64,000 bases of DNA from a virus: the IMG/VR virus record IMGVR_UViG_3300045988_060960; one strand, written 5' to 3'. A program made the position numbers and the translations under genes. The notes below the pieces were generated by a model, which saw only the letters and a program-made list of their open reading frames with translations, ran no database searches and was not told the origin of the DNA. Shown here piece after piece: positions 4,071-64,000 of the stretch. The first letter of the stretch is position 1. Every line of letters begins with the position of its first letter.

Positions 4071-4667
4071 CTACATAGGTTCACCGGTTACGCCGCCGGA
4101 ATCGCCAAGGTGTTTGTGGTGCGCCCCGCTGACGCGCTCCTCAGAAACGACGTCTTTTGAAGCTGTGATTTTCCCTTCCACATGGACGTCGCCCAAGATT
4201 TGCACCCCGGCCTTCGTGACTGCAACATAAACACTACCGTCGTCCGTTGCGAGAACGAGGCTCTCGCCGGGAAGACCCCGCACCGCGTAGTCACCCGCCA
4301 CGATTCCGCCGATGAAAACAGCGTCCGTGGTTGCGTGGTTTCGTTCGGTGAGCGGTTGAGCTTCTTTGCCTCCGCTCACCGTACTGTCCATATCGTGATC
4401 GAGATAGACCACCACTCCCACGTCGCCCGCTTTTATCCAAGGGCGTATGATAAACCCGCCGCTCCGAGTGCAAGCGACGGGTATGCTCAGAATGGGAGGT
4501 TGGCTTTCATACTTCCCGTTCTGCAAATGTTTCGACAGGGGCTGTACATCCACCGTCATCTTGGCTGGGTCGAATGACTTGACCGACACGACTGCCGCCA
4601 CGCAAATGGATTCAGCCAGCTTCCGGTCGTGAATTTGCTGGTAGTTATATGGCTTTACGTTTGCCAC
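4071..4667 (-). CDS. Baseplate central spike protein (gpV/Gp138-N-like); mirror copy
   Basis: Exact mirror of 52816..53412(+). Confidence 0.65.
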   Translation of the reverse strand: MANVKPYNYQQIHDRKLAESICVAAVVSVKSFDPAKMTVDVQPLSKHLQNGKYESQPPILSIPVACTRSGGFIIRPWIKAGDVGVVVYLDHDMDSTVSGGKEAQPLTERNHATTDAVFIGGIVAGDYAVRGLPGESLVLATDDGSVYVAVTKAGVQILGDVHVEGKITASKDVVSEERVSGAHHKHLGDSGGVTGEPM

Positions 4668-56897: not shown

Positions 56898-58340
56898 ATG
56901 GCTTATGACGAGACCAAGGTCGTAAACGTAAAAGCCCTGAAGGACACGGCGACCCGCATTAAGACGGAATATCTCGCCGCGATTTCCAAAGCGGGCCACG
57001 CCCGCTTCCAGAAGTCCGATACCGTGCCTGACGCTGGCACGGCTGAGGAAAACGTGCTGTACCTCGTCCACAACGATGAGACCGGCCATTACGACGTGTA
57101 CGCCCTGATTGATGGTGTGGTCGAGCTGCTCGACGATACCACCGTCAGTCTGGACGGCTACGTAACCGACGATGATCTGGCTGAGGCGCTCAACGGCGTG
57201 GGCGGCGGTGCGGTGTACACCGGCACCAAGACCGACCTTGAAGCGACCGACGCTTCGGTCATCGAGGCGTACTTCACTGAGCACAGCGACATTACCCCGA
57301 AGGCCGGAGATATGTTTGCTGTGGTCACTGTGGTGGACAGCATCACCTATGAGATGACCGCCTACCGTTTCGACGGCGAGGACTGGGTGAGCATCACCGG
57401 TAATGTGGATGCCGACAAGGTGATTATGCCGGAGAACATCACGCTGGCCGGCAACTACACCCAGTTCGGCAACCTGACCAAGAACGCGGACGGCACCGCC
57501 ACTCTCAGCTCTAAGGGCAAGAGTGTGCTGGACGTGTTCACCGAAATCCTGAGCAAACGCCTTCAGCCCACTATCACCGCCCAGCCCAGCATCAGCGGGT
57601 TCAACCTGTCCGGTGCGAAGGCTGTGGAGGCCGGCACCTCTCTGGCGTCTGCTGCGTATACGGCAGGCAATCTGAACCCCGGCAGCTACCAGTACGGCCC
57701 GGAGACCGGTGTCACCGCCTCCAACTGGGTGGTGCAGCGTATCACTGACGGCGGCACTGAGCAGATTGCCAGCGTGGACGCTGCCAGCCTGAGCGCCGGT
57801 TCCGATAACAATGGCGGCGATGGCTTTATCATCGGAGACCAGGGCGGCGAGAACGTCGTGGCGTCCCTGAAGTACAAGGCCATCGCCACTCACGGCGCTG
57901 GTGTGACTGCCAACGACAACCTCGGCAGCGCCTCTGACCCTGCCGTGAACATCGCTTCCGGTACGAAGGAGAAGACCACCGGGGCCTACACGCCCTACCG
58001 GAACTACTTCTACGGGGCCACCACAGAGAAGCCCACCGTTGACAGTGCCTACATCCGGGGTCTGACCAAGAGCAACAAGGCGTATGCCGCCGGTACGCTG
58101 ACTATCAACGTCCCTGCCGGGGCGCAGCGTGTGGTCATCGCCTGCATCGCTGGCAAGACCGGCGTGACCAAGGTCATCAACGAGACCGCGATGAACGCCG
58201 ACGTGACCGGCACCTTTACGCAGTCTTCCGTCAATGTCGAGGGCGCTGAGGGCTACACCGCCGTTGCGTACAACGTGTGGGTGTTTGAGCCTGCTGTGCC
58301 TTACGAGAACGCCGCGACCCTGAAGGTCACGCTGGGCTGA
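56898..58340 (+). CDS. Tail fibre-like protein (480 aa)
   Basis: Strong SD; Thr/Gly/Ala-rich beta-type composition. The N-terminus MAYDETKVVNVKALKDTATRIKTEYLAAI is shared in pattern with the 58741 protein. The palindrome boundary (57482) falls inside this gene only because of the window edge. Confidence 0.7.
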   Translation: MAYDETKVVNVKALKDTATRIKTEYLAAISKAGHARFQKSDTVPDAGTAEENVLYLVHNDETGHYDVYALIDGVVELLDDTTVSLDGYVTDDDLAEALNGVGGGAVYTGTKTDLEATDASVIEAYFTEHSDITPKAGDMFAVVTVVDSITYEMTAYRFDGEDWVSITGNVDADKVIMPENITLAGNYTQFGNLTKNADGTATLSSKGKSVLDVFTEILSKRLQPTITAQPSISGFNLSGAKAVEAGTSLASAAYTAGNLNPGSYQYGPETGVTASNWVVQRITDGGTEQIASVDAASLSAGSDNNGGDGFIIGDQGGENVVASLKYKAIATHGAGVTANDNLGSASDPAVNIASGTKEKTTGAYTPYRNYFYGATTEKPTVDSAYIRGLTKSNKAYAAGTLTINVPAGAQRVVIACIAGKTGVTKVINETAMNADVTGTFTQSSVNVEGAEGYTAVAYNVWVFEPAVPYENAATLKVTLG

Positions 58341-58356
58341 GAGGAGGGAATGAAGT

Positions 58357-58707
58357 ATGGCTATCAACGGTTCTGACAAGAGTTTTGCCTTTATGGAGTT
58401 CCCGCTGAGTATGTCCCGGCAGGATGCTTTCCCGCTGGACAAAAACTCGGTGTTCTACTCTATGTCCGACGCGCAAACCTACGCACAGACCAACCCGACC
58501 GCCTATGTCGGTCAGGTCATCGCTGTGGTGGAGGAAGGCGTCTCCACCGTCTACCAGATTAAGAACGCCGCCGGCGAGCTGGAAGCTCTCGGCACCGGAG
58601 ACCTCGAAGGCGACGTGGACGCCATCGTGGATGACCGTATCGCCACTGACGGCGAAGTCGCTGAGATGATTTCCGAAATCTTTGGCTCGGAAGACCCCGA
58701 AGCCTGA
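58357..58707 (+). CDS. Hypothetical fibre-associated protein (116 aa)
   Basis: Strong SD. The C-terminal DGEVAEMISEIFGSEDPEA motif is shared with neighbouring fibre proteins. Confidence 0.6.
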   Translation: MAINGSDKSFAFMEFPLSMSRQDAFPLDKNSVFYSMSDAQTYAQTNPTAYVGQVIAVVEEGVSTVYQIKNAAGELEALGTGDLEGDVDAIVDDRIATDGEVAEMISEIFGSEDPEA

Positions 58708-58740
58708 GATAATACCAAAACTTATTAGGAGGATTTTATC

Positions 58741-59658
58741 ATGAGTTACGATGTCAACAAGCTCACCAAGCTCGGCCACCTGAAGTCTCTGGCGAACAAG
58801 ATCAAGTCTGATTACGCCACCAAAGCGGAGCTGGCCGCCATCAAGGTCCCCGAGTACAGCGTGGCCAAGCAGGCTACTGCTGAGACCGGCTTCCTGTCCA
58901 CCTACTATCTGACCAAGGATGGTGCCCAGGTGGGCGAGAAGATTAACATTCCCAAGGACTTCCTCGTCAACAGTGCTGACATCAAGACCGTCGAAACCGC
59001 TGATACCCCCTACGAGGGTGCTCAGGTGGGCGACCTGTACATCGACTTTGTTATCAACAGCAAGAGCGCCGATGACACCGCCTCCCACGTCTACCTGCCC
59101 GTCAATGAGCTGGTGGACGCCTACACCGGCGGCAACGGCATCGAGGTCAGCGCCCAGAACCTGATTTCTGCAAGGATTGACACCGCCAATGCCAACGGCC
59201 TCGGCGTGACCGCTGCCGGCTTCAAGCTGGATGTGGCTACCGCCAGCACCGCCGGCGCTATGTCCGCCGCTGACAAGGCCAAGCTGGACGGCATCGCAGA
59301 GGGCGCAAACAACTACACCCACCCTGCCCACACTGCTCACGAGAGCGGGCTGTACAAGGTAACTGTGGACGCTCAGGGTCATGTGTCTGACGCTGAGGCT
59401 GTCACCAAGGAGGACATCACCGGTCTGGGCATCCCCGGTCAGGACACCACCTACCAGAAGGCCACTGCTGAGGCCGACGGTCTGATGTCCAAGGAGCACT
59501 TCGCCAAGGTCGAGGACGTCGCCGCTGGCGCGACTAAGGTCGAGGCCAGCACCACTCCCGGCAACATCAAGATTAACGGTTCCGAGACCCCCGTGGTGAC
59601 TATCGCCACCGATGAGGAGGTCACGGAAATGCTGGCCGAGATTTTCCCCACCGCCTAA
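58741..59658 (+). CDS. Tail fibre-like protein (305 aa)
   Basis: N-terminal coiled-coil-like KLTKLGHLKSLANKIKSDYATKAEL. It contains the fibre repeat motifs AGAMSAADKAKLDGI and DGLMSKEHFAKVEDV. C-terminus DEEVTEMLAEIFPTA. Confidence 0.7.
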   Translation: MSYDVNKLTKLGHLKSLANKIKSDYATKAELAAIKVPEYSVAKQATAETGFLSTYYLTKDGAQVGEKINIPKDFLVNSADIKTVETADTPYEGAQVGDLYIDFVINSKSADDTASHVYLPVNELVDAYTGGNGIEVSAQNLISARIDTANANGLGVTAAGFKLDVATASTAGAMSAADKAKLDGIAEGANNYTHPAHTAHESGLYKVTVDAQGHVSDAEAVTKEDITGLGIPGQDTTYQKATAEADGLMSKEHFAKVEDVAAGATKVEASTTPGNIKINGSETPVVTIATDEEVTEMLAEIFPTA

Positions 59659-59738
59659 GATAGAGACCTGACGAGCGGACCGATGGGCGGGTTGTGGAGG
59701 GCTGGTCCGTTCTCAGAAAAATTAGGAGGTGATTCACA

Positions 59739-60128
59739 TTGGCAGTTGTAACCCTTGACCATCTGAAGTCTTTGGCTCTGCAAGCGAAGTCCGAAATTGC
59801 CGAAGTAGCGAGCGCCGCTGCGGAGGCTTTGGAGGAAATGGATGCTCAGAAGCCGGACAAGTCGCAGGAGGTGTCGGCAACGATTCCAGCGACAGGGTGG
59901 TCTGCTGATACCAATGCTTACCCGCAATACTACGACTTCACCGCAGCGGGCGTTACGGCGGCTGATGACGTGAGGGTCTTCCTCGATCCTGCCTCTGTCA
60001 GTGCTGCTGTTGCTTGCGGCCTCTGCCCGACTGTGGAGACGCAGGACGGCAAGCTCCGGTTCCGCGCTTTGCAGGTCCCGGCGTCGGCCATCTCTGTGAA
60101 GTATCGGATTCAGGAAGGAAAGGAGTAA
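59739..60128 (+). CDS. Hypothetical fibre-associated protein (129 aa)
   Basis: TTG start 7 nt after AGGAGGTGA. The N-terminus TLDHLKSLALQAKSEIAEV echoes the fibre N-termini. Confidence 0.55.
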   Translation: MAVVTLDHLKSLALQAKSEIAEVASAAAEALEEMDAQKPDKSQEVSATIPATGWSADTNAYPQYYDFTAAGVTAADDVRVFLDPASVSAAVACGLCPTVETQDGKLRFRALQVPASAISVKYRIQEGKE

Positions 60129-60132
60129 GCCT

Positions 60133-62232
60133 ATGGGCTATGGAAGTGTAAACGTACCCGGCGTGAGCGGTCCCGAGCTTGAAGCGGTTCGCGCCCTTGC
60201 CAACAGCGCGTTGGAGAAGGCGAACGAGGCGCTTGAAGGGGGCGGCGGTTCCGGGTGCGTCCTGAAAATCACGTTCGACGCTGACTTTGCCGGCCAGCAG
60301 TACACGGTTACTGACGGCGCGGGGGACACCAAGACCGGCACCGTGCCGGAGGGTCTTGTGGATTCCGTCAGCGTCAAGAACTGCAACACGGAGTACACCG
60401 TCAGCGCGAGCACAGCGTCTGGCGAGCAGTATTCCGCAACCGTGACCACCGGCGCGTACTTCGGCCAGTATGAAGTCACGCTGGCCGTGTTCACCGCGAC
60501 CATTACGGTCACGACTGCCCCCAACGCGGAGGCAAAGGCTGTCCTCGGTGGCAGCGCCTACACCGCAACCGCCAACGGCAGCGGCGTGGCTGCGATCTCG
60601 GTCAAGAAGGCCGGCAAATACACGGTAAGCGCCACAATTTCCGGCAAGACCTCTGCGTCCGTAGAGGTCAACGTGACGGAGGCCGACGAGAACTACACCG
60701 CCACCGTCAAAATCCCCATTGCGGCCATCCCGTCTCAGGGCGAGAGCTTGACCTACACCGGTCAGGCGCAGACCCCCACGTTCGACGATTACAACAGCGC
60801 CGAGCTGACACTGGGCGGCACGACCAGCGGCACCAACGCCGGCAGCTACAATGCCAGCTTCACTCCGAAGCCCGGCTACCAGTGGAGCGACGGCACGACC
60901 ACCGCCAAGACCGTGGCGTGGAGCATTGCCAAGGCTGCTGGCTCTCTGAGCCTCAATCCGACTTCGCTGTCGCTGAACGGCGATTCGCCTACCGGCTCCG
61001 TCACTGTGACCCGTGCGGGCGACGGTGCGATTACCGCCACGTCCGGCGACCCCGATGTCGTCAGCGTGTCGGTCAGCGGCAACAAGGTAAACGTCACCGC
61101 GCTCGATGAGGGCAACGTGACTGTAACCGTAAAGGTCGCGGCTGGCACGAACCACAACGCTCCCGCCAACAAGACCTTTACGGTCAACGTGACCAACATG
61201 GTCCACATCTACGGCGCGAGCTGGGATGGCAGCAGCACGACCAAGTGGACCCGCACCGATGAGGCGGCGGGCTTCACTGACCCCGTGCCGTATGTGCAGG
61301 GCGCAAGTAAGTACAGCTCTCCCTTCGACGATTTGCAGCCGTGGGCGGGCATGGTCAAGAGCGAGCGCACCGGCGGTACGATGGTCGCCATCCCGAAGTT
61401 CTGGTACAAGCTGACCCAGAACGGCAACGGCCTGAAAATCCAGATCGCCGACAGAGCGCAGAGCGGCTTTTCTGTTTCCCCCGCCCACATGGACAGGGGC
61501 GACGGCAAGGGCGAGCGCGATGTCGTGTACATCGGTCGTTATCACTGCGGCACGTCCAGCAACAAGTCCACCAGCGGCCAGCGCCCCAAGGCGAACATCA
61601 CCCGGTCCAGTGCTCGTTCCACCATTCATGGCCTCGGCGCGAACATCTGGCAGATGGACTTCCTGATGCGTTTCACCATCTGGCTGCTCTACATTGTGGA
61701 GTTCGCCGATTGGAACTCTCAGGCGAAAATCGGGTATGGCTGCGGTAACGACAGCAACACCGAGAATATGGGGTACACCGACAGTATGCCCTACCATACC
61801 GGCACCACGAAGAACTCCCGCACCACCTACGGCTGCGGTACCCAGTACCGCAACATCGAGGGCTTGTGGGATAACGTGTACGACTGGATGGACGGTTGCT
61901 ATTACAACGGCAGCGGCCTGAACGTCATCAAGAATCCCAACCAGTTCAGCGACAGCGCCAACGGCGTGAACGTGGGTACGCTAACGAGCGGTTATCCTTC
62001 TAAGTTCACAGTGAGAACTCAGGCTGGGTTCCCGGTGTTCGCGCCGTCTGCGTCCAGTGGCAGCGATTCTACGTATTCGTGCGATTACTGGTACTTCAAC
62101 TCGTCGTACCCGTGCCTCTGCGTTGGTGGCTACTACGTCCAGAGCACCTACCGCGGCCTGTTCTTCGTCTACTTCAACGGCGTCTCGTACTCGTACGCGA
62201 ACATCGGCTGCCGCCTCCAAGAACTCCCCTAA
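60133..62232 (+). CDS. DGR target protein: tail fibre / receptor-binding protein with Ig-like (Big_2-type) domain and C-terminal C-type-lectin/FGE-sulfatase-fold variable domain (699 aa)
   Basis: The Big_2-like segment is LSLNPTSLSLNGDSPTGSVTVTRAGDGAITATSGDPDVVSVSVSGNKVNVTALDEGNVTVTV. The CLec/FGE-type block is YRNIEGLWDNVYDWMDG. The VR-encoded end ...CDYWYFNSSYPCLCVGGYYVQSTYRGLFFVYFNGVSYSYANIGCRLQELP lies 18 nt before the stop. Confidence 0.88.
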   Translation: MGYGSVNVPGVSGPELEAVRALANSALEKANEALEGGGGSGCVLKITFDADFAGQQYTVTDGAGDTKTGTVPEGLVDSVSVKNCNTEYTVSASTASGEQYSATVTTGAYFGQYEVTLAVFTATITVTTAPNAEAKAVLGGSAYTATANGSGVAAISVKKAGKYTVSATISGKTSASVEVNVTEADENYTATVKIPIAAIPSQGESLTYTGQAQTPTFDDYNSAELTLGGTTSGTNAGSYNASFTPKPGYQWSDGTTTAKTVAWSIAKAAGSLSLNPTSLSLNGDSPTGSVTVTRAGDGAITATSGDPDVVSVSVSGNKVNVTALDEGNVTVTVKVAAGTNHNAPANKTFTVNVTNMVHIYGASWDGSSTTKWTRTDEAAGFTDPVPYVQGASKYSSPFDDLQPWAGMVKSERTGGTMVAIPKFWYKLTQNGNGLKIQIADRAQSGFSVSPAHMDRGDGKGERDVVYIGRYHCGTSSNKSTSGQRPKANITRSSARSTIHGLGANIWQMDFLMRFTIWLLYIVEFADWNSQAKIGYGCGNDSNTENMGYTDSMPYHTGTTKNSRTTYGCGTQYRNIEGLWDNVYDWMDGCYYNGSGLNVIKNPNQFSDSANGVNVGTLTSGYPSKFTVRTQAGFPVFAPSASSGSDSTYSCDYWYFNSSYPCLCVGGYYVQSTYRGLFFVYFNGVSYSYANIGCRLQELP
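62078..62214 (+). repeat. DGR variable region (VR)
   Basis: 137-nt block aligned to 62338..62474 at offset 260. There are 16 mismatches, all where the TR has A (11 A-to-T, 5 A-to-G). The identical 3-prime anchor is GCGAACATCGGCTGCCGC. Confidence 0.9.
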
Positions 62233-62289
62233 TGGGGGAGTTTGAGGGGGCGAAGCCCCCTCATAAGGGACCCGCGCCGTAGGCGCGGG
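62224..62289 (+). promoter_or_regulatory. Three tandem GC-rich hairpins immediately downstream of VR (candidate DGR target-recognition/cruciform element)
   Basis: Hairpin 1 is CTCCCC-taatg-GGGGAG (62224-62240, spanning the stop codon). Hairpin 2 is GAGGGGGC-GAA-GCCCCCTC (62244-62262). Hairpin 3 is CCCGCGCC-GTA-GGCGCGGG (62271-62289). None is followed by a T-tract. Confidence 0.5.
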
Positions 62290-62337
62290 GACCAACCGGG
62301 GCTACCTGTGCAGTGCCGATGTCATCGTTCTGGGTTA

Positions 62338-62474
62338 CGTGCGATAACTGGAACTTCAACTCGTCGAACCCGTGCCTCTACGTTGGTGGCAACTACAACC
62401 AGAACACCAACCACGGCCTGTTCTACGTCAACTACAACGACGTCTCGAACTCGAACGCGAACATCGGCTGCCGC
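62338..62474 (+). repeat. DGR template region (TR)
   Basis: Adenine-rich, AAC-codon-rich counterpart of the VR. Read in the VR frame it gives CDNWNFNSSNPCLYVGGNYNQNTNHGLFYVNYNDVSNSNANIGCR. It lies in non-coding sequence between the target gene and the RT. Confidence 0.9.
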
Positions 62475-62621
62475 ATCCTTTTTGTGCTTTGCTTAATCCT
62501 CCATTTCACGGCACAGGTAGTCGCGCACCCCTTGGTGAAGATAAGCAAATTTGGGGAGCGGGTTAGTACACCTCTGCGGAGGCGCTGGAAAGCCCGTACA
62601 GCTAAAAGGAGGAACATCCCT

Positions 62622-63818
62622 GTGAAGCGAGCAAAGAATCTCTTTGAGAAGCTCGTATCTGATGACAACCTGCTGCTTGCCATCGACGAGGTGAACCGCA
62701 CTCACCACTGGCGAACGCATCATCGTCCGAACTCTTGCACCGCATGGGTGGAGGAAACAAAGGAGGAGCGCGTCAAGGAGCTGCGGCAAATCATCATCGA
62801 CGGTTTCGAGCAGAAGAAACCTCACGTGTCTCAGCGATGGGACGCCAGCGCCCGGAAATGGCGCACGGTCAGCGAGCCGGTCCAGTGGCCCGACCAGTAC
62901 GTCCACCACGCTCTGATTCAGGTGTTGCAGCCTGTGTTCATGCGCGGGATGGATTACTACTGCTGCGGGAGCATCCGTGACAGAGGCCCGCATCACGCCC
63001 GGAAAGCCATCGAGATCTGGATGGACAAAGACCCTCGCGGGACGAAGTATGAGTTCTGCGGTGACATCCACCACTTCTACGACAGCCTGAAGCCGGAGGT
63101 CGTGATGGACCGTATGCGCCAGCTCATCAAAGACTATCGCGTTCTCGACCTCATTTGGCGCGTCATCAAGGATGGCGTTTTGATTGGGGCCTATACCTCT
63201 CAGTGGTTTGCCAACACGGTCTTGCAGCCGCTGGACATGCTTATCCGGGAGAGCGGGCTGTGCAAGCACTACGTCCGCTACATGGATAACCTTACCATTT
63301 TTGGCTCGAACAAACGCAAGCTGAAGAAGCTGCGTGTGCTCGTGGAGACATGGCTGAATGCCCATCAGCTCCGGCTCAAAGCCGATTGGCAGATATTCCC
63401 GACAGTGAGGAGGAATCCACGCGTCCCGTTAAACCCTCCAAGACGCGGGTATGAGAGGCCGAAAGAGCGTATGCCTGATGCAGTAGGCTATCGCTATGGG
63501 CGCGGTTACACCATCCCGCGTAAACACAATCTTCTCCGCATTAAACGGGCTATCGCTCGTTATCGAAAGCGGAGACGCTTGAAAAAGCGCATTTTGGCAG
63601 GAGCGGCGGCCAGTCTGCTCTCCCGCCTCGGGCAGTTGAAACACTGCAATAATCACAACATCTATCGGATGCTGTTCCAAGGTGAACGTCTCATGCGTGA
63701 GCTGAAGCGCATCATCCGGCAGAAGCAGCGAAAGGAGGAACTCACTTGGAATACGTATTTGGAACGCAGGGCGAAATCGAAGTCCTCAAAACAAAGGGCG
63801 ATTCCCACACCGACCTGA
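62622..63818 (+). CDS. DGR reverse transcriptase (398 aa) with YMDN in place of YxDD and a long basic C-terminal extension
   Basis: GTG 62622 is 9 nt after AAGGAGG, giving MKRAKNLFEKLVSDDNLLLAIDE, a typical DGR RT N-terminus. Motifs seen: CGSIRDRGPHHA, YEFCGDIHHFYDSL, the DGR hallmark LIGAYTSQWFANTVLQPLD, and YVRYMDNLTIFG. The track ORF 62313..63818 wrongly fuses TR and spacer to the RT. Confidence 0.88.
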   Translation: MKRAKNLFEKLVSDDNLLLAIDEVNRTHHWRTHHRPNSCTAWVEETKEERVKELRQIIIDGFEQKKPHVSQRWDASARKWRTVSEPVQWPDQYVHHALIQVLQPVFMRGMDYYCCGSIRDRGPHHARKAIEIWMDKDPRGTKYEFCGDIHHFYDSLKPEVVMDRMRQLIKDYRVLDLIWRVIKDGVLIGAYTSQWFANTVLQPLDMLIRESGLCKHYVRYMDNLTIFGSNKRKLKKLRVLVETWLNAHQLRLKADWQIFPTVRRNPRVPLNPPRRGYERPKERMPDAVGYRYGRGYTIPRKHNLLRIKRAIARYRKRRRLKKRILAGAAASLLSRLGQLKHCNNHNIYRMLFQGERLMRELKRIIRQKQRKEELTWNTYLERRAKSKSSKQRAIPTPT

Positions 63819-64000
63819 CCGGGTTCCACCAGATCGAGCAGACATTCCCCGACCAGACCATCACCGATAACTTCCGCGTCGTGCGGAAAATCGAGAGCGC
63901 CGAGGACGTGGAGGGCAACTGCTACGACTGGTACGAGATCGACCGGCATTACCGTGCCGTCGATAAGACCGGGCCTGTTATCCAGCAGGTCAACGAGAGC
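63746..64000 (+). CDS. Hypothetical acidic protein, N-terminal 85 codons (runs off window)
   Basis: TTG 63746 is 6 nt after AAGGAGGA, and the frame stays open to the window end (MEYVFGTQGEIEVLKTKGDSHTDLTGFHQIEQTFPDQ...). It overlaps the RT 3-prime end by 73 nt, so the start is uncertain. It is not in the ORF track because no stop is reached. Confidence 0.45.
   Translation, partial: MEYVFGTQGEIEVLKTKGDSHTDLTGFHQIEQTFPDQTITDNFRVVRKIESAEDVEGNCYDWYEIDRHYRAVDKTGPVIQQVNES

What the first reader, a model, noticed from the sequence alone, without database searches (positions are those of the whole stretch)
60133..63818. Diversity-generating retroelement targeting a tail-fibre receptor-binding protein
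The last 137 nt before the end of the 699-aa fibre gene (VR, 62078..62214) recur 260 bp downstream in non-coding DNA (TR, 62338..62474). The two copies differ at 16 positions, and at every one the TR base is A (11 A-to-T, 5 A-to-G). All other bases are identical, including an 18-nt 3-prime anchor GCGAACATCGGCTGCCGC. Adenine-specific TR-to-VR mismatches are the defining DGR signature. The TR is rich in AAC codons, and 15 VR codons are altered (N to Y/V/S, H to R, Y to C/F, D to G). The VR sits in a C-terminal CLec/FGE-sulfatase-type domain (YRNIEGLWDNVYDWMDG ... ANIGCRL). An RT with the DGR hallmark ...LIGAYTSQWFAN... follows a 147-nt spacer. Its location at the end of a four-gene fibre cassette implies tropism switching, as with Bordetella phage BPP-1 Mtd, but here in a PBSX-like myophage.
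Basis: seen in the sequence. Interest (0 to 1): 0.75.

Follow-up and report, generated by a model that had tools for sequence, protein, structure and literature searches.

The report
DGR diversifying a phage tail fibre
This is a genuine diversity-generating retroelement in a temperate gut phage with a contractile tail: it rewrites the tip of a tail-fibre-like protein through error-prone reverse transcription. It is a well-known kind of system, here in an accessory-free form with a few unusual details.

Summary
VR 62078-62214 and TR 62338-62474 are offset by 260 nt and differ at 16 positions, all of them TR adenines (chance about 5e-10).

The downstream ORF is a DGR-type reverse transcriptase. 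It starts at GTG 62622, is 398 aa long, passes Pfam RVT_1, and its best solved-structure match is an RT aligned over the IGxxTSQxFAN motif.

The VR-bearing C-terminal domain folds like known DGR variable proteins (TaqVP, Mtd, TvpA, then FGE).

Across 25 related loci, 409 of 415 core VR/TR mismatches lie at TR adenines. Five different VRs share this exact TR and differ only at adenine positions.

The TR-RT spacer is the Rfam motif RT-18. A covarying 19-bp duplex brackets the TR, resembling the "cPRT Stop" duplex of the Bordetella phage DGR RNA.

No Avd or HRDC gene was found, which corresponds to the known accessory-free "Architecture A". The RT lineage carries YMDN where other RTs have YxDD.

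The host is probably Flavonifractor or another Oscillospiraceae member, and the phage has a contractile tail.

Verdict: a real and probably active DGR, and a new member of a known kind. Separately, window 1-57482 is a perfect palindrome, probably an assembly artefact.

The parts
60133..62232 (+). DGR target gene, 699 aa. It has a short N-terminal helix and Gly-rich linker, a beta-rich/Ig-like middle part, and a C-terminal CLec/FGE-type domain.
   Evidence: ORF. PHROG phrog_37900 covers residues 196-356 and phrog_5302 'tail protein' covers 412-699. Relatives carry Big_2 PF02368. The gene lies downstream of baseplate J and tail-fibre genes.
61201..62229 (+). C-terminal ligand-binding domain (residues 357-699) with the CLec/FGE-type fold; carries the VR.
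   Evidence: AlphaFold2 model with pLDDT 84.4 and pTM 0.90. Foldseek against the PDB: TaqVP 5vf4 (E 1.7e-8, TM 0.55), then Mtd 1yu*, TvpA 2y3c, then FGEs. No Pfam or PDB sequence hit.
62078..62214 (+). Variable repeat (VR). Repeat homology runs from 62077 to 62218.
   Evidence: 16 of 16 mismatches to the TR are at TR adenines. Across 61 close relatives, entropy is 1.90 bits at TR-A codons against 0.35 bits at other VR codons.
62205..62218 (+). GC-rich invariant 3' end of the VR (CGGCTGCCGCCTCC), IMH-like. Position 62215 is C in every VR but A, C or T in the TRs.
   Evidence: The assignment as IMH is by analogy with BPP-1 (inference).
62221..62243 (+). Hairpin 1 immediately after the VR (GAACTCCCCT-AAT-GGGGGAGTTT), with the stop codon TAA in the loop.
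   Evidence: ViennaRNA fold. Conserved in all relatives.
62244..62262 (+). Hairpin 2 (GAGGGGGC-GAA-GCCCCCTC), a GC-rich 8-bp stem. It is the candidate DNA hairpin/cruciform for target recognition.
   Evidence: Fold and conservation of the stem with variable loops in all relatives, including distant ones. Analogy with Guo 2011, PMC3240598.
62267..62293 (+). Hairpin 3 (core CCCGCGCC-GTA-GGCGCGGG).
   Evidence: Fold. Present in the closer relatives only.
62297..62315 (+). 5' arm of the long-range RNA duplex that brackets the TR.
   Evidence: Inverted repeat I8. Recovered in the MFE fold. 7 of 19 pairs show compensatory double changes, and 0 of 500 shuffles reach the observed values.
62338..62474 (+). 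Template repeat (TR), non-coding. It has 36 adenines, all at codon positions 1 or 2 of the VR frame (13 AAC codons). No stop codon is reachable, and about 10^21 protein variants are possible.
   Evidence: The TR is 100% identical in loci whose VRs differ.
62479..62506 (+). U-rich linker between the TR and the 3' duplex arm, with conserved UUGCUAA and CCUCC elements and no stable stem-loop. It is the candidate location of the priming strand.
   Evidence: Alignment A1. The functional assignment is inference.
62507..62525 (+). 3' arm of the TR-bracketing duplex.
62526..62611 (+). RT-18 RNA motif (Rfam RF03021), the structured part of the TR-RT spacer. Its 3' tail contains the RT's Shine-Dalgarno sequence.
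   Evidence: 69.7 bits against a gathering score of 41.3, E 1.9e-12. Found at the same place in 15 of 15 lineage loci scanned. Its helices covary.
62622..63818 (+). DGR reverse transcriptase, 398 aa, GTG start. It has the motif IGAYTSQWFAN, the catalytic box YMDN (residues 220-223), and a very basic C-terminal third.
   Evidence: Pfam RVT_1, 38 bits against a cut-off of 29.6. phrog_1423, 1.3e-68. PDB 8ub7, E 5.5e-13. YMDN is conserved in the lineage. Residues 264-398 have pI 11.8.

Best explanation
This is a diversity-generating retroelement of the accessory-free TR-RT type (Architecture A1 of Wu et al.), carried by a temperate contractile-tailed phage of gut Oscillospiraceae.

Proposed mechanism:
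1. An RNA spanning roughly 62297-62625 is transcribed. It contains the 5' duplex arm, the TR, a linker, the 3' duplex arm and RT-18.
2. The 19-bp duplex bracketing the TR and the RT-18 fold scaffold the 398-aa RT on its own template.
3. cDNA synthesis starts in the GC-rich 3' end of the TR (3' of A62463) and runs 5'-ward. It copies C, G and U faithfully but misincorporates opposite the 36 adenines.
4. The cDNA replaces the VR (62078-62214) of the fibre gene. Directionality comes from the VR-specific 3' end and the GC-rich hairpins just downstream.
5. The result is recoding of up to 23 codons (13 of them AAC) on the ligand-binding face of a C-type-lectin-fold domain. No stop codon can arise, and about 10^21 variants are possible.

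This most likely lets the phage retarget its receptor-binding fibre.

Shown here: the repeat anatomy, the adenine specificity, the RT family, the fold, the RNA structure covariation, and population hypervariation.

Inferred: the RNA boundaries, the priming site, the roles of the hairpins, Avd-independence, and the biological role in tropism.
For: - 16 of 16 mismatches fall at TR adenines, p = 5e-10.
- In 25 distinct VR/TR pairs from relatives, 409 of 415 core mismatches are at TR-A (A>G 245, A>T 148, A>C 16). 34 of the 36 adenines are seen mutated somewhere.
- Five different VRs share this exact TR, and all 30 positions at which they differ are TR adenines.
- P0001 and P0002 are identical except in the VR.
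- Entropy is 1.90 bits at TR-A codons against 0.35 bits at other VR codons.
- All adenines lie at codon positions 1 or 2, and no stop codon is reachable.
- The RT passes Pfam RVT_1, matches phrog_1423, and has 8ub7 as its best PDB hit with the IGxxxSQ motif.
- The fold matches TaqVP, Mtd and TvpA.
- RT-18 scores above the gathering threshold here and in 15 of 15 lineage loci.
- The TR-bracketing duplex and the RT-18 helices covary. A comparable duplex of sequences upstream and downstream of the TR is an essential element of the BPP-1 DGR RNP.
- Hairpins downstream of the VR are conserved, as described by Guo 2011.
- No Avd or HRDC was found among 90 small ORFs or among called genes within 10 kb either side. 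This agrees with the accessory-free architecture seen in 29% of curated DGRs.
Against: - No reads were available, so ongoing activity of this particular copy is not shown. The same VR occurs on the other contigs that carry this exact protein: L001 and L002 were read, from two samples.
- The RT has YMDN instead of the canonical YxDD box. In other RTs the second Asp is usually considered catalytic. Conservation of YMDN in a lineage with diversified VRs argues that it is functional, but this is indirect.
- No sigma-70-like promoter was found for the TR-RT unit.
- The hairpin loops (AAT, GAA, GTA) do not fit the 4-nt GRNA consensus reported for other phage DGRs.
- The receptor-binding role of the target is inferred only from gene position, a PHROG 'tail protein' label and the fold.
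Confidence: 0.95

Rival explanations
1. The element is a DGR by descent, but this copy is now inactive: a fossil whose VR was fixed after past diversification.
For: The same VR is seen on independent contigs from two samples (L001 from JGI 3300058045, L002 from ERR260171). The RT box is YMDN rather than YMDD. Decayed relatives exist (L038/L065, with a truncated TR and an RT remnant).
Against: The RT is full length and 95-97% identical to those of sister phages. The TR is 100% identical to TRs paired with four other VRs that differ only at adenine positions. YMDN is ancestral to the whole diversifying lineage. The RNA elements and hairpins are intact.
Confidence: 0.12
2. The DGR is active, but the target is not the primary receptor-binding fibre. 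Instead it would be an accessory adhesin (Ig-like domains plus a lectin tip) used for binding mucus, glycans or other environmental ligands, so it would not switch host tropism.
For: Ig-like (Big_2) domains occur in the middle of the protein and in relatives. The phage encodes several other fibre-like proteins upstream (348, 480 and 305 aa). The gut-phage DGR literature discusses Hoc-like/adhesin targets.
Against: The gene sits in the baseplate/tail-fibre module, and its C-terminal domain matches a PHROG annotated as a tail protein. DGR-less relatives carry one or two paralogous CLec fibres at the same place, followed by the same small acidic gene. That arrangement looks like a fibre plus an assembly factor.
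Confidence: 0.25
3. The repeat is an ordinary duplication or recombination product, and the adenine bias is a coincidence or a compositional artefact.
For: None beyond the a priori possibility. TR adenines make up 26% of the repeat.
Against: p = 5e-10 for this pair alone. The same bias holds for 409 of 415 mismatches in 25 independent VR/TR pairs. There is an adjacent DGR-type RT and a CLec fold.
Confidence: 0.01

Closest known systems
Bordetella phage BPP-1 DGR (mtd-avd-TR-brt)
   Same: - Phage-borne, with the VR at the 3' end of a tail-module gene that has a CLec fold.
- TR immediately upstream of the RT, and adenine-specific mutagenesis.
- GC-rich VR end with hairpin(s) downstream.
[quoted passage not shown]
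   Different: - No avd gene, and no stem-loop directly after the TR, which is where the Avd-binding stem-loop sits in BPP-1.
- The spacer RNA is Rfam RT-18, not RT-10.
- The RT is 398 aa rather than 328 aa, has a very basic C-terminal third, and carries YMDN instead of YMDD.
- The target is a 699-aa Ig+CLec protein with no sequence similarity to Mtd (Foldseek TM only about 0.30).
- The host is a Gram-positive gut anaerobe.
Accessory-free DGRs, 'Architecture A1' (target, TR-RT) of Wu et al. 2018 (PMC5758913)
   Same: Core TR-RT with an adjacent upstream target and no Avd, HRDC, MSL or CH1 gene. That survey proposed an Avd-independent retrohoming mechanism for such elements.
   Different: I could not place this RT in their tree (no sequences available). 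The link to RT-18 and to the YxDN box is not mentioned in the text I could read.
DGRs of Faecalibacterium and other Oscillospiraceae prophages (Mushu, Lagaffe, Roos, Pioen, Lelie; PMC11792537)
   Same: Temperate gut Clostridia phages with DGRs that diversify tail- or adhesin-like proteins. Activity is shown by adenine-specific variation among cognate genomes, the same kind of evidence as here.
   Different: They have different target families (DUF6273, Mtd-like, Hoc-like/tentaclin). No nucleotide match was found to any deposited phage genome.
Thermus aquaticus TaqVP (PDB 5VF4) and Treponema TvpA (2Y3C) variable proteins
   Same: These are the best structural matches to the VR-bearing domain. 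[quoted passage not shown]
   Different: They are cellular rather than phage proteins, with only 11-14% sequence identity. Here the domain is fused behind Ig-like domains in a phage tail module.
Rfam RT-18 (RF03021), from Weinberg et al. 2017 (PMC5737381)
   Same: A full-length match well above the gathering score, located upstream of an RT gene as the family was defined.
   Different: That paper assigned only RT-10 to a DGR and speculated about the others (retrons or DGRs). [quoted passage not shown]

Membership tests
Diversity-generating retroelement (DGR) | TR/VR imperfect repeat whose mismatches are (almost) exclusively at TR adenines | tested here: met
   16 of 16 here. 409 of 415 in 25 VR/TR pairs of relatives.
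Diversity-generating retroelement (DGR) | Adjacent reverse transcriptase of the DGR clade ([I/L/V]GxxxSQ in motif 4) | tested here: met
   Passes Pfam RVT_1. IGAYTSQWFAN aligns with IGSLTSQLFAN of PDB 8ub7, E 5.5e-13. The motif is conserved in relatives.
Diversity-generating retroelement (DGR) | Canonical YxDD catalytic box of reverse transcriptases | tested here: not met
   The box is YMDN at residues 220-223. It is conserved in all lineage members. The N variant occurs in 26 of 115 aligned representatives. The first Asp is retained. The functional consequence is unknown.
Diversity-generating retroelement (DGR) | VR inside the 3' end of a protein-coding target; TR non-coding | tested here: met
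   The VR covers codons 649-694 of 699. The ORF that reads through the TR is not conserved in relatives.
Diversity-generating retroelement (DGR) | TR adenines placed at codon positions 1 and 2 (AAY codons), avoiding stop codons | tested here: met
   36 adenines: 15 at position 1, 21 at position 2, none at position 3. There are 13 AAC codons, and no codon can become a stop.
Diversity-generating retroelement (DGR) | Variable residues displayed on a C-type lectin (or Ig) fold | tested here: met
   AF2 model with pTM 0.90. Top Foldseek hits are TaqVP, Mtd, TvpA and FGE.
Diversity-generating retroelement (DGR) | GC-rich IMH-like VR end and a GC-rich hairpin/cruciform downstream of the VR with a 4-nt GRNA loop | tested here: inconclusive
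   The GC-rich end and three GC-rich hairpins lie 3-50 nt after the VR, and two of them are conserved in all relatives. The loops are AAT, GAA and GTA, not GRNA.
Diversity-generating retroelement (DGR) | Accessory gene avd (or HRDC/MSL/CH1); present in about 71-74% of DGRs, so not universal | tested here: not met
   No PF05635 or HRDC among 90 ORFs of 85-190 aa on both strands, plus flanking genes. None among called genes within 10 kb either side. The acidic 147-aa ORF after the RT also occurs in DGR-less relatives.
Diversity-generating retroelement (DGR) | Hypervariation of the VR in natural populations with a conserved TR | tested here: met
Diversity-generating retroelement (DGR) | RT-dependent mutagenic retrohoming demonstrated experimentally | not testable with these tools
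   Needs reads or wet-lab work.
Rfam RT-18 RNA (RF03021) | Covariance-model score at or above the gathering threshold, with helices supported by covariation | tested here: met
   69.7 bits against 41.3. 15 of 15 lineage loci score 52-73 bits. Compensatory changes occur in all RT-18 helices.
BPP-1-type DGR RNA architecture (Handa et al., bioRxiv 10.1101/2023.10.23.563531) | Duplex between sequences upstream and downstream of the TR ('cPRT Stop' duplex, about 13 bp) | tested here: met
   62297-62315 pairs with 62507-62525: 19 pairs, 85% of cells paired, 7 pairs with double compensatory changes. Functional equivalence is inferred.
BPP-1-type DGR RNA architecture (Handa et al., bioRxiv 10.1101/2023.10.23.563531) | Avd-binding stem-loop directly downstream of the TR | tested here: not met
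   The 28-nt U-rich linker 62479-62506 forms no stable stem in the MFE or centroid fold and varies in length among relatives. This is consistent with the absence of Avd.
Mtd (BPP-1 major tropism determinant) family | Sequence homology to Mtd | tested here: not met
   No Pfam hit and no PDB sequence hit. Only a weak fold match (TM 0.30, E 4e-3).
Tentaclins (PMC10743442) | [quoted passage not shown] | tested here: not met
   The topology here is the reverse: Ig-like region at residues 196-356, CLec at 357-699, with the VR at the C-terminus.
PBSX-like contractile-tailed phage | Sheath, tube, tape measure and baseplate module, plus the XkdW/XkdX-type small genes after the fibres | tested here: inconclusive
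   Sheath phrog_205, tape measure, baseplate hub, wedge and J, and sheath initiator are all present. XkdX scores only 20.5 bits against a cut-off of 23.5. No nucleotide match to any deposited phage.

The most novel reading that the evidence does not exclude
This RT lineage may be a mechanistically distinct DGR subclass. Its traits are a YxDN catalytic box, a 398-aa RT with an extremely basic C-terminal third, no Avd, no Avd-binding stem-loop, a TR-bracketing duplex, and the RT-18 scaffold. In this reading the RNA plus the RT's own basic extension do the job of the Avd pentamer, and the Asp-to-Asn change in the catalytic box alters metal binding or fidelity. That would give the orphan Rfam motif RT-18 a function, and by extension RT-17, which sits at the same place in the YMDD-type relative L031. 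It would also offer a minimal two-component (RT + RNA) DGR for engineering.
Probability: 0.3. Interest if true: 0.55.

Novelty: new member of a known kind. Interest (0 to 1): 0.3.

Why it matters
DGRs are the only known natural systems for targeted protein hypermutation in prokaryotes and their viruses, and they are very common in gut phages. Another example is therefore not surprising.

What this locus adds is a clean, well-populated natural series: dozens of related phages, five VRs on one identical TR, and relatives with decayed DGRs or none. The DGR in this series works without Avd.

It ties the orphan RNA motif RT-18 to the TR-RT spacer of a diversifying DGR. It shows that the TR-bracketing duplex described for BPP-1 is conserved and covaries in an Avd-less lineage. 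It documents a conserved YxDN catalytic box.

A compact RT + RNA system with a cultivable probable host (Flavonifractor plautii, or the Butyricicoccus pullicaecorum DSM 23266 prophage) could be a practical model for Avd-independent retrohoming and for engineering.

Tried and rejected
- Pfam and NCBIfam on the target gave nothing, and a PDB sequence search of residues 357-699 gave nothing even at E 10. Only the fold comparison worked.
- Megablast of 57483-64000 against deposited phages found no match.
- The 501-aa ORF 62313-63818, which fuses TR and RT, was rejected because its frame is broken by stops in most relatives.
- Avd/HRDC search: Pfam on the neighbours, then on 90 small ORFs, both negative.
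- The acidic 147-aa ORF that overlaps the RT end (pI 4.05) was considered as a CH1-like accessory. It was rejected as DGR-specific because homologues directly follow CLec fibre genes in RT-less phages L063, L066 and L070, and it survives DGR decay (L038). A direct comparison with CH1 was impossible because no supplementary data are held.
- The promoter/terminator scan of 61900-62700 found nothing.
- The whole DGR RNA does not fold significantly better than shuffles (z -0.99), so the structural claims rest on covariation.
- Weak Rfam hits (anti-hemB, Clostridiales-2, Sso133, RT-17) are below gathering and overlap the hairpins or RT-18, so they were disregarded.
- The size of cluster P0002 (3,787 members) cannot be read as a count of target variants, because it also contains 398- and 499-aa RT-length members.
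- I could not locate the priming adenosine or the template:primer duplex. Candidate pairings found by eye were not convincing.
- Protelomerase/hairpin-telomere idea for the palindrome: not supported, because independent contigs are not palindromic there.

Full report
**Observation**

The window carries a 699-aa ORF at 60133-62232. A 141-142-nt direct repeat lies at 62077/8-62218 and 62337/8-62478. An ungapped comparison gives 16 mismatches inside 62078-62214 versus 62338-62474. In all 16 the downstream copy has A: 11 A>T and 5 A>G. They alter 15 codons.

The downstream copy has 36 A in 137 nt, so the chance of 16 of 16 at A is 5.2e-10.

Two further differences sit at the repeat edges (62077/62337 and 62215/62475). 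They are constant in every VR of related phages while the TR base varies. I therefore read them as boundary differences (IMH versus IMH*-like), not mutagenesis. No other copy of the repeat exists in the window on either strand, even when only non-adenine positions are scored.

**Reverse transcriptase**

The mechanical ORF 62313-63818 reads through the TR. That frame contains stop codons in most relatives. The conserved start is GTG 62622 (ATG or TTG in some relatives), 8 nt after AAAGGAGGA.

The 398-aa product passes Pfam RVT_1 (38 bits against a cut-off of 29.6) and matches PHROG 1423 'reverse transcriptase' (1.3e-68). Its best solved-structure match is the 328-aa RT of PDB 8ub7 (E 5.5e-13). 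That alignment pairs IGAYTSQWFAN with IGSLTSQLFAN, which is the [I/L/V]GxxxSQ signature of DGR RTs. I take 8ub7 to be the Bordetella phage bRT of the bRT-Avd-RNA cryo-EM study. The deposit name given is only 'Reverse transcriptase', so that identification is my inference.

One departure from the norm: the catalytic box is YMDN, not YxDD. It is YMDN in every lineage member examined, at 66-97% identity. In a MAFFT alignment of 50%-identity representatives, N occupies that position in 26 of 115 sequences. These include nearly all sequences at 42% identity or more to this RT. Most of the more distant DGR-type RTs have YxDD. A full-text search for 'YMDN' with 'reverse transcriptase' found nothing.

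**Target protein**

Sequence profiles do not recognise the C-terminal domain. PHROGs label residues 412-699 as 'tail protein' and residues 196-356 as a family of unknown function. Relatives carry Big_2 Ig-like domains.

An AlphaFold2 model of residues 357-699, built from 49 sequences, is confident (pLDDT 84.4, pTM 0.90). Foldseek against the PDB returns, in this order:
- the DGR variable protein TaqVP (5vf4; E 1.7e-8, TM 0.55)
- Mtd of BPP-1
- TvpA of Treponema
- the formylglycine-generating enzymes

So the VR sits in the FGE-type C-type-lectin fold typical of DGR targets.

**Evidence of diversification**

The exact target protein occurs on several gut-metagenome contigs. RT-based searches fetched 30 IMG/VR loci and 7 genome loci.
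- In 25 distinct VR/TR pairs (17 distinct TRs), 409 of 415 core mismatches are at TR adenines: A>G 245, A>T 148, A>C 16. 34 of the 36 adenines are mutated somewhere.
- Five different VRs are paired with a TR identical to this one. All 30 positions at which those VRs differ are TR adenines.
- In these sister phages the TR and the VR-TR interval are 100% identical, while the VR is 85-89% identical and the flanking gene and RT are 84-96% identical.
- At protein level, P0001 and P0002 are identical for about 650 residues and then diverge in the VR.
- Over 61 close relatives, entropy is 1.90 bits at VR residues whose TR codon has A at position 1 or 2, against 0.35 bits at the other VR residues.
- All 36 adenines are at codon positions 1 or 2 (13 AAC codons). 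No stop can be generated, and the repertoire is about 10^21 proteins.

This is strong evidence that the lineage is, or very recently was, active. It does not prove activity of this copy.

**RNA and DNA elements**

The TR-RT spacer contains a full-length match to Rfam RT-18 (62526-62611; 69.7 bits, gathering score 41.3). RT-18 is at the same place in all 15 lineage loci scanned. A distant YMDD-type relative (L031) has the sister motif RT-17 there instead. Weinberg et al. defined RT-1 to RT-19 only by proximity to RT genes. They assigned RT-10 to the BPP-1 DGR and speculated about the rest.

Immediately 5' of RT-18, a 19-nt segment (62507-62525) pairs with 62297-62315, upstream of the TR. On an alignment of 21 relatives, 7 of these 19 pairs show compensatory double changes, and the RT-18 helices covary too. 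None of 500 shuffles reaches the observed values, and slid controls collapse. The MFE fold recovers the duplex.

Handa et al. describe an essential duplex between sequences upstream and downstream of the TR in the BPP-1 RNP (the 'cPRT Stop' duplex). In their RNA it is preceded by an Avd-binding stem-loop and followed by RT-binding RNA. They surveyed it only in DGRs that have Avd. Here the duplex is present, but the 28-nt U-rich linker after the TR forms no stem-loop.

Downstream of the VR are three GC-rich hairpins (62221-62243, 62244-62262, 62267-62293). The first two are conserved in all relatives. This corresponds to the hairpin/cruciform needed for retrohoming in BPP-1, although the loops are not GRNA.

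**Accessory genes**

No Avd (PF05635) or HRDC was found among neighbours or among 90 ORFs of 85-190 aa on both strands. Wu et al. report that 29% of curated DGRs lack accessory genes (Architecture A, core TR-RT) and proposed Avd-independent retrohoming for them.

The acidic 147-aa ORF that overlaps the RT's 3' end (pI 4.05) accompanies the RT in almost all relatives. It also directly follows CLec fibre genes in phages with no RT (L063, L066, L070). It is therefore a fibre-module gene, and the TR-RT unit appears inserted between the fibre gene and it.

The RT's last 135 residues are extremely basic (pI 11.8, 40 K/R). Whether they substitute for Avd is speculation.

**Context**

The phage has a tail sheath, tape measure, baseplate hub, wedge and J proteins, and a sheath initiator, so its tail is contractile. 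On the 61.7-kb JGI contig, an endolysin, a serine recombinase and repressor-like HTH genes lie downstream, so it is temperate. 'PBSX-like' rests only on a sub-threshold XkdX hit.

For the host: a member of the 90% cluster of P0001 is annotated from Flavonifractor plautii on a 501-kb contig. RT relatives lie in Butyricicoccus pullicaecorum DSM 23266 and in Oscillospiraceae MAGs.

DGRs in gut Oscillospiraceae prophages are already documented. The target is not a tentaclin, because its topology is reversed.

**Verdict**

The interpretation as a DGR acting on a tail-module CLec protein is supported. It is a new member of a known kind, of the accessory-free architecture.

The modestly novel points are:
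- the assignment of RT-18 to a diversifying DGR
- a covarying TR-bracketing duplex in an Avd-less lineage
- the conserved YxDN box

Tropism switching remains an inference.

**Separate observation**

Window 1-28741 is the exact reverse complement of 28742-57482, with 0 mismatches. Independent contigs carrying the same genes diverge from the window left of about 28836 and are not palindromic. The foldback is therefore most likely an assembly or sequencing artefact. The DGR lies outside it.

Noticed in passing
window 1-57482 (centre 28741/28742): Window 1-28741 is the exact reverse complement of 28742-57482, with 0 mismatches. Only 28742-64000 is unique sequence. Independent contigs with the same genes (L040-L043) diverge from the window left of about 28836 and are not palindromic, so this looks like a foldback assembly or sequencing artefact rather than a hairpin telomere.
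   Followed up: partly
window 63279-63290 (RT residues 220-223): The RT catalytic box is YMDN instead of YxDD. It is conserved in all lineage members and in 26 of 115 aligned representatives (YMDN, YIDN, YLDN, YADN, QMDN, HMDN). I found no mention of it in the searchable literature.
   Followed up: partly
window 63746-64000 (runs off the window); full length at L001:13614-14054: A 147-aa strongly acidic ORF (pI 4.05) starts about 70 nt inside the RT's 3' end, in another frame. It keeps this fixed overlap across the lineage, but it also directly follows CLec fibre genes in RT-less phages. It is probably a fibre-associated gene (an assembly factor?), not a DGR accessory.
   Followed up: yes
L005:4173-4360: In this sister phage the target gene runs straight into a VR/TR hybrid repeat. 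The first roughly 25 nt carry mutated adenines, and the rest is TR-like and followed by the TR's downstream spacer. The 260-nt VR-TR interval is missing. This is either VR x TR recombination or assembly collapse.
   Followed up: partly
L013:~4072-4115 (just after the VR): A 21-nt tandem duplication, GCTGCCGCCTCCAAGAACTCCC, at the VR 3' end/IMH-like region. It could be a retrohoming or replication-slippage scar.
   Followed up: no
L038:1747-2250 and L065: A decayed DGR. The VR, hairpin and 5' duplex arm are present, but the TR is truncated after about 75 nt and only the last 81 residues of the RT remain. The acidic ORF is intact.
   Followed up: partly
L066:17-2908 and L070:284-3483: DGR-less relatives carry two tandem paralogous Ig+CLec fibre genes at this position. 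This suggests an alternative route to receptor-binding diversity: paralogue expansion instead of a DGR.
   Followed up: no
window 62219-62478 versus flanks (compare L004, L006, L010, L033): The TR and the VR-TR interval are 100% identical among phages whose fibre gene and RT are only 84-96% identical to the window. This suggests very strong constraint on, or recent exchange of, this 400-nt segment.
   Followed up: no
window 62499-62503 and 62608-62612: A conserved CCUCC in the linker after the TR is complementary to the RT's Shine-Dalgarno GGAGG at the 3' end of RT-18. This may allow RNA-level control of RT translation. Seen by eye in alignment A1 only.
   Followed up: no
window 62250-62256 and 62276-62284: Hairpins 2 and 3 have C-GAA-G and C-GTA-G loops. 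From my own knowledge, the GCGAAGC type is an unusually stable DNA mini-hairpin, which would fit a DNA-level (cruciform) role.
   Followed up: no
window 56898-60230 (N-termini of the 480-, 305-, 129- and 699-aa ORFs): Several proteins of the fibre cassette begin with similar short amphipathic helices (for example ...LKSLA..K.., ...LEAVRALANSALEKANEAL). These may be a shared docking module. Not analysed.
   Followed up: no
protein cluster of P0002: The 90%-identity cluster of the target (3,787 members) also contains 398- and 499-aa RT-length sequences. They were apparently joined through gene calls that read through the TR. Cluster size therefore overstates the number of target variants.
   Followed up: no
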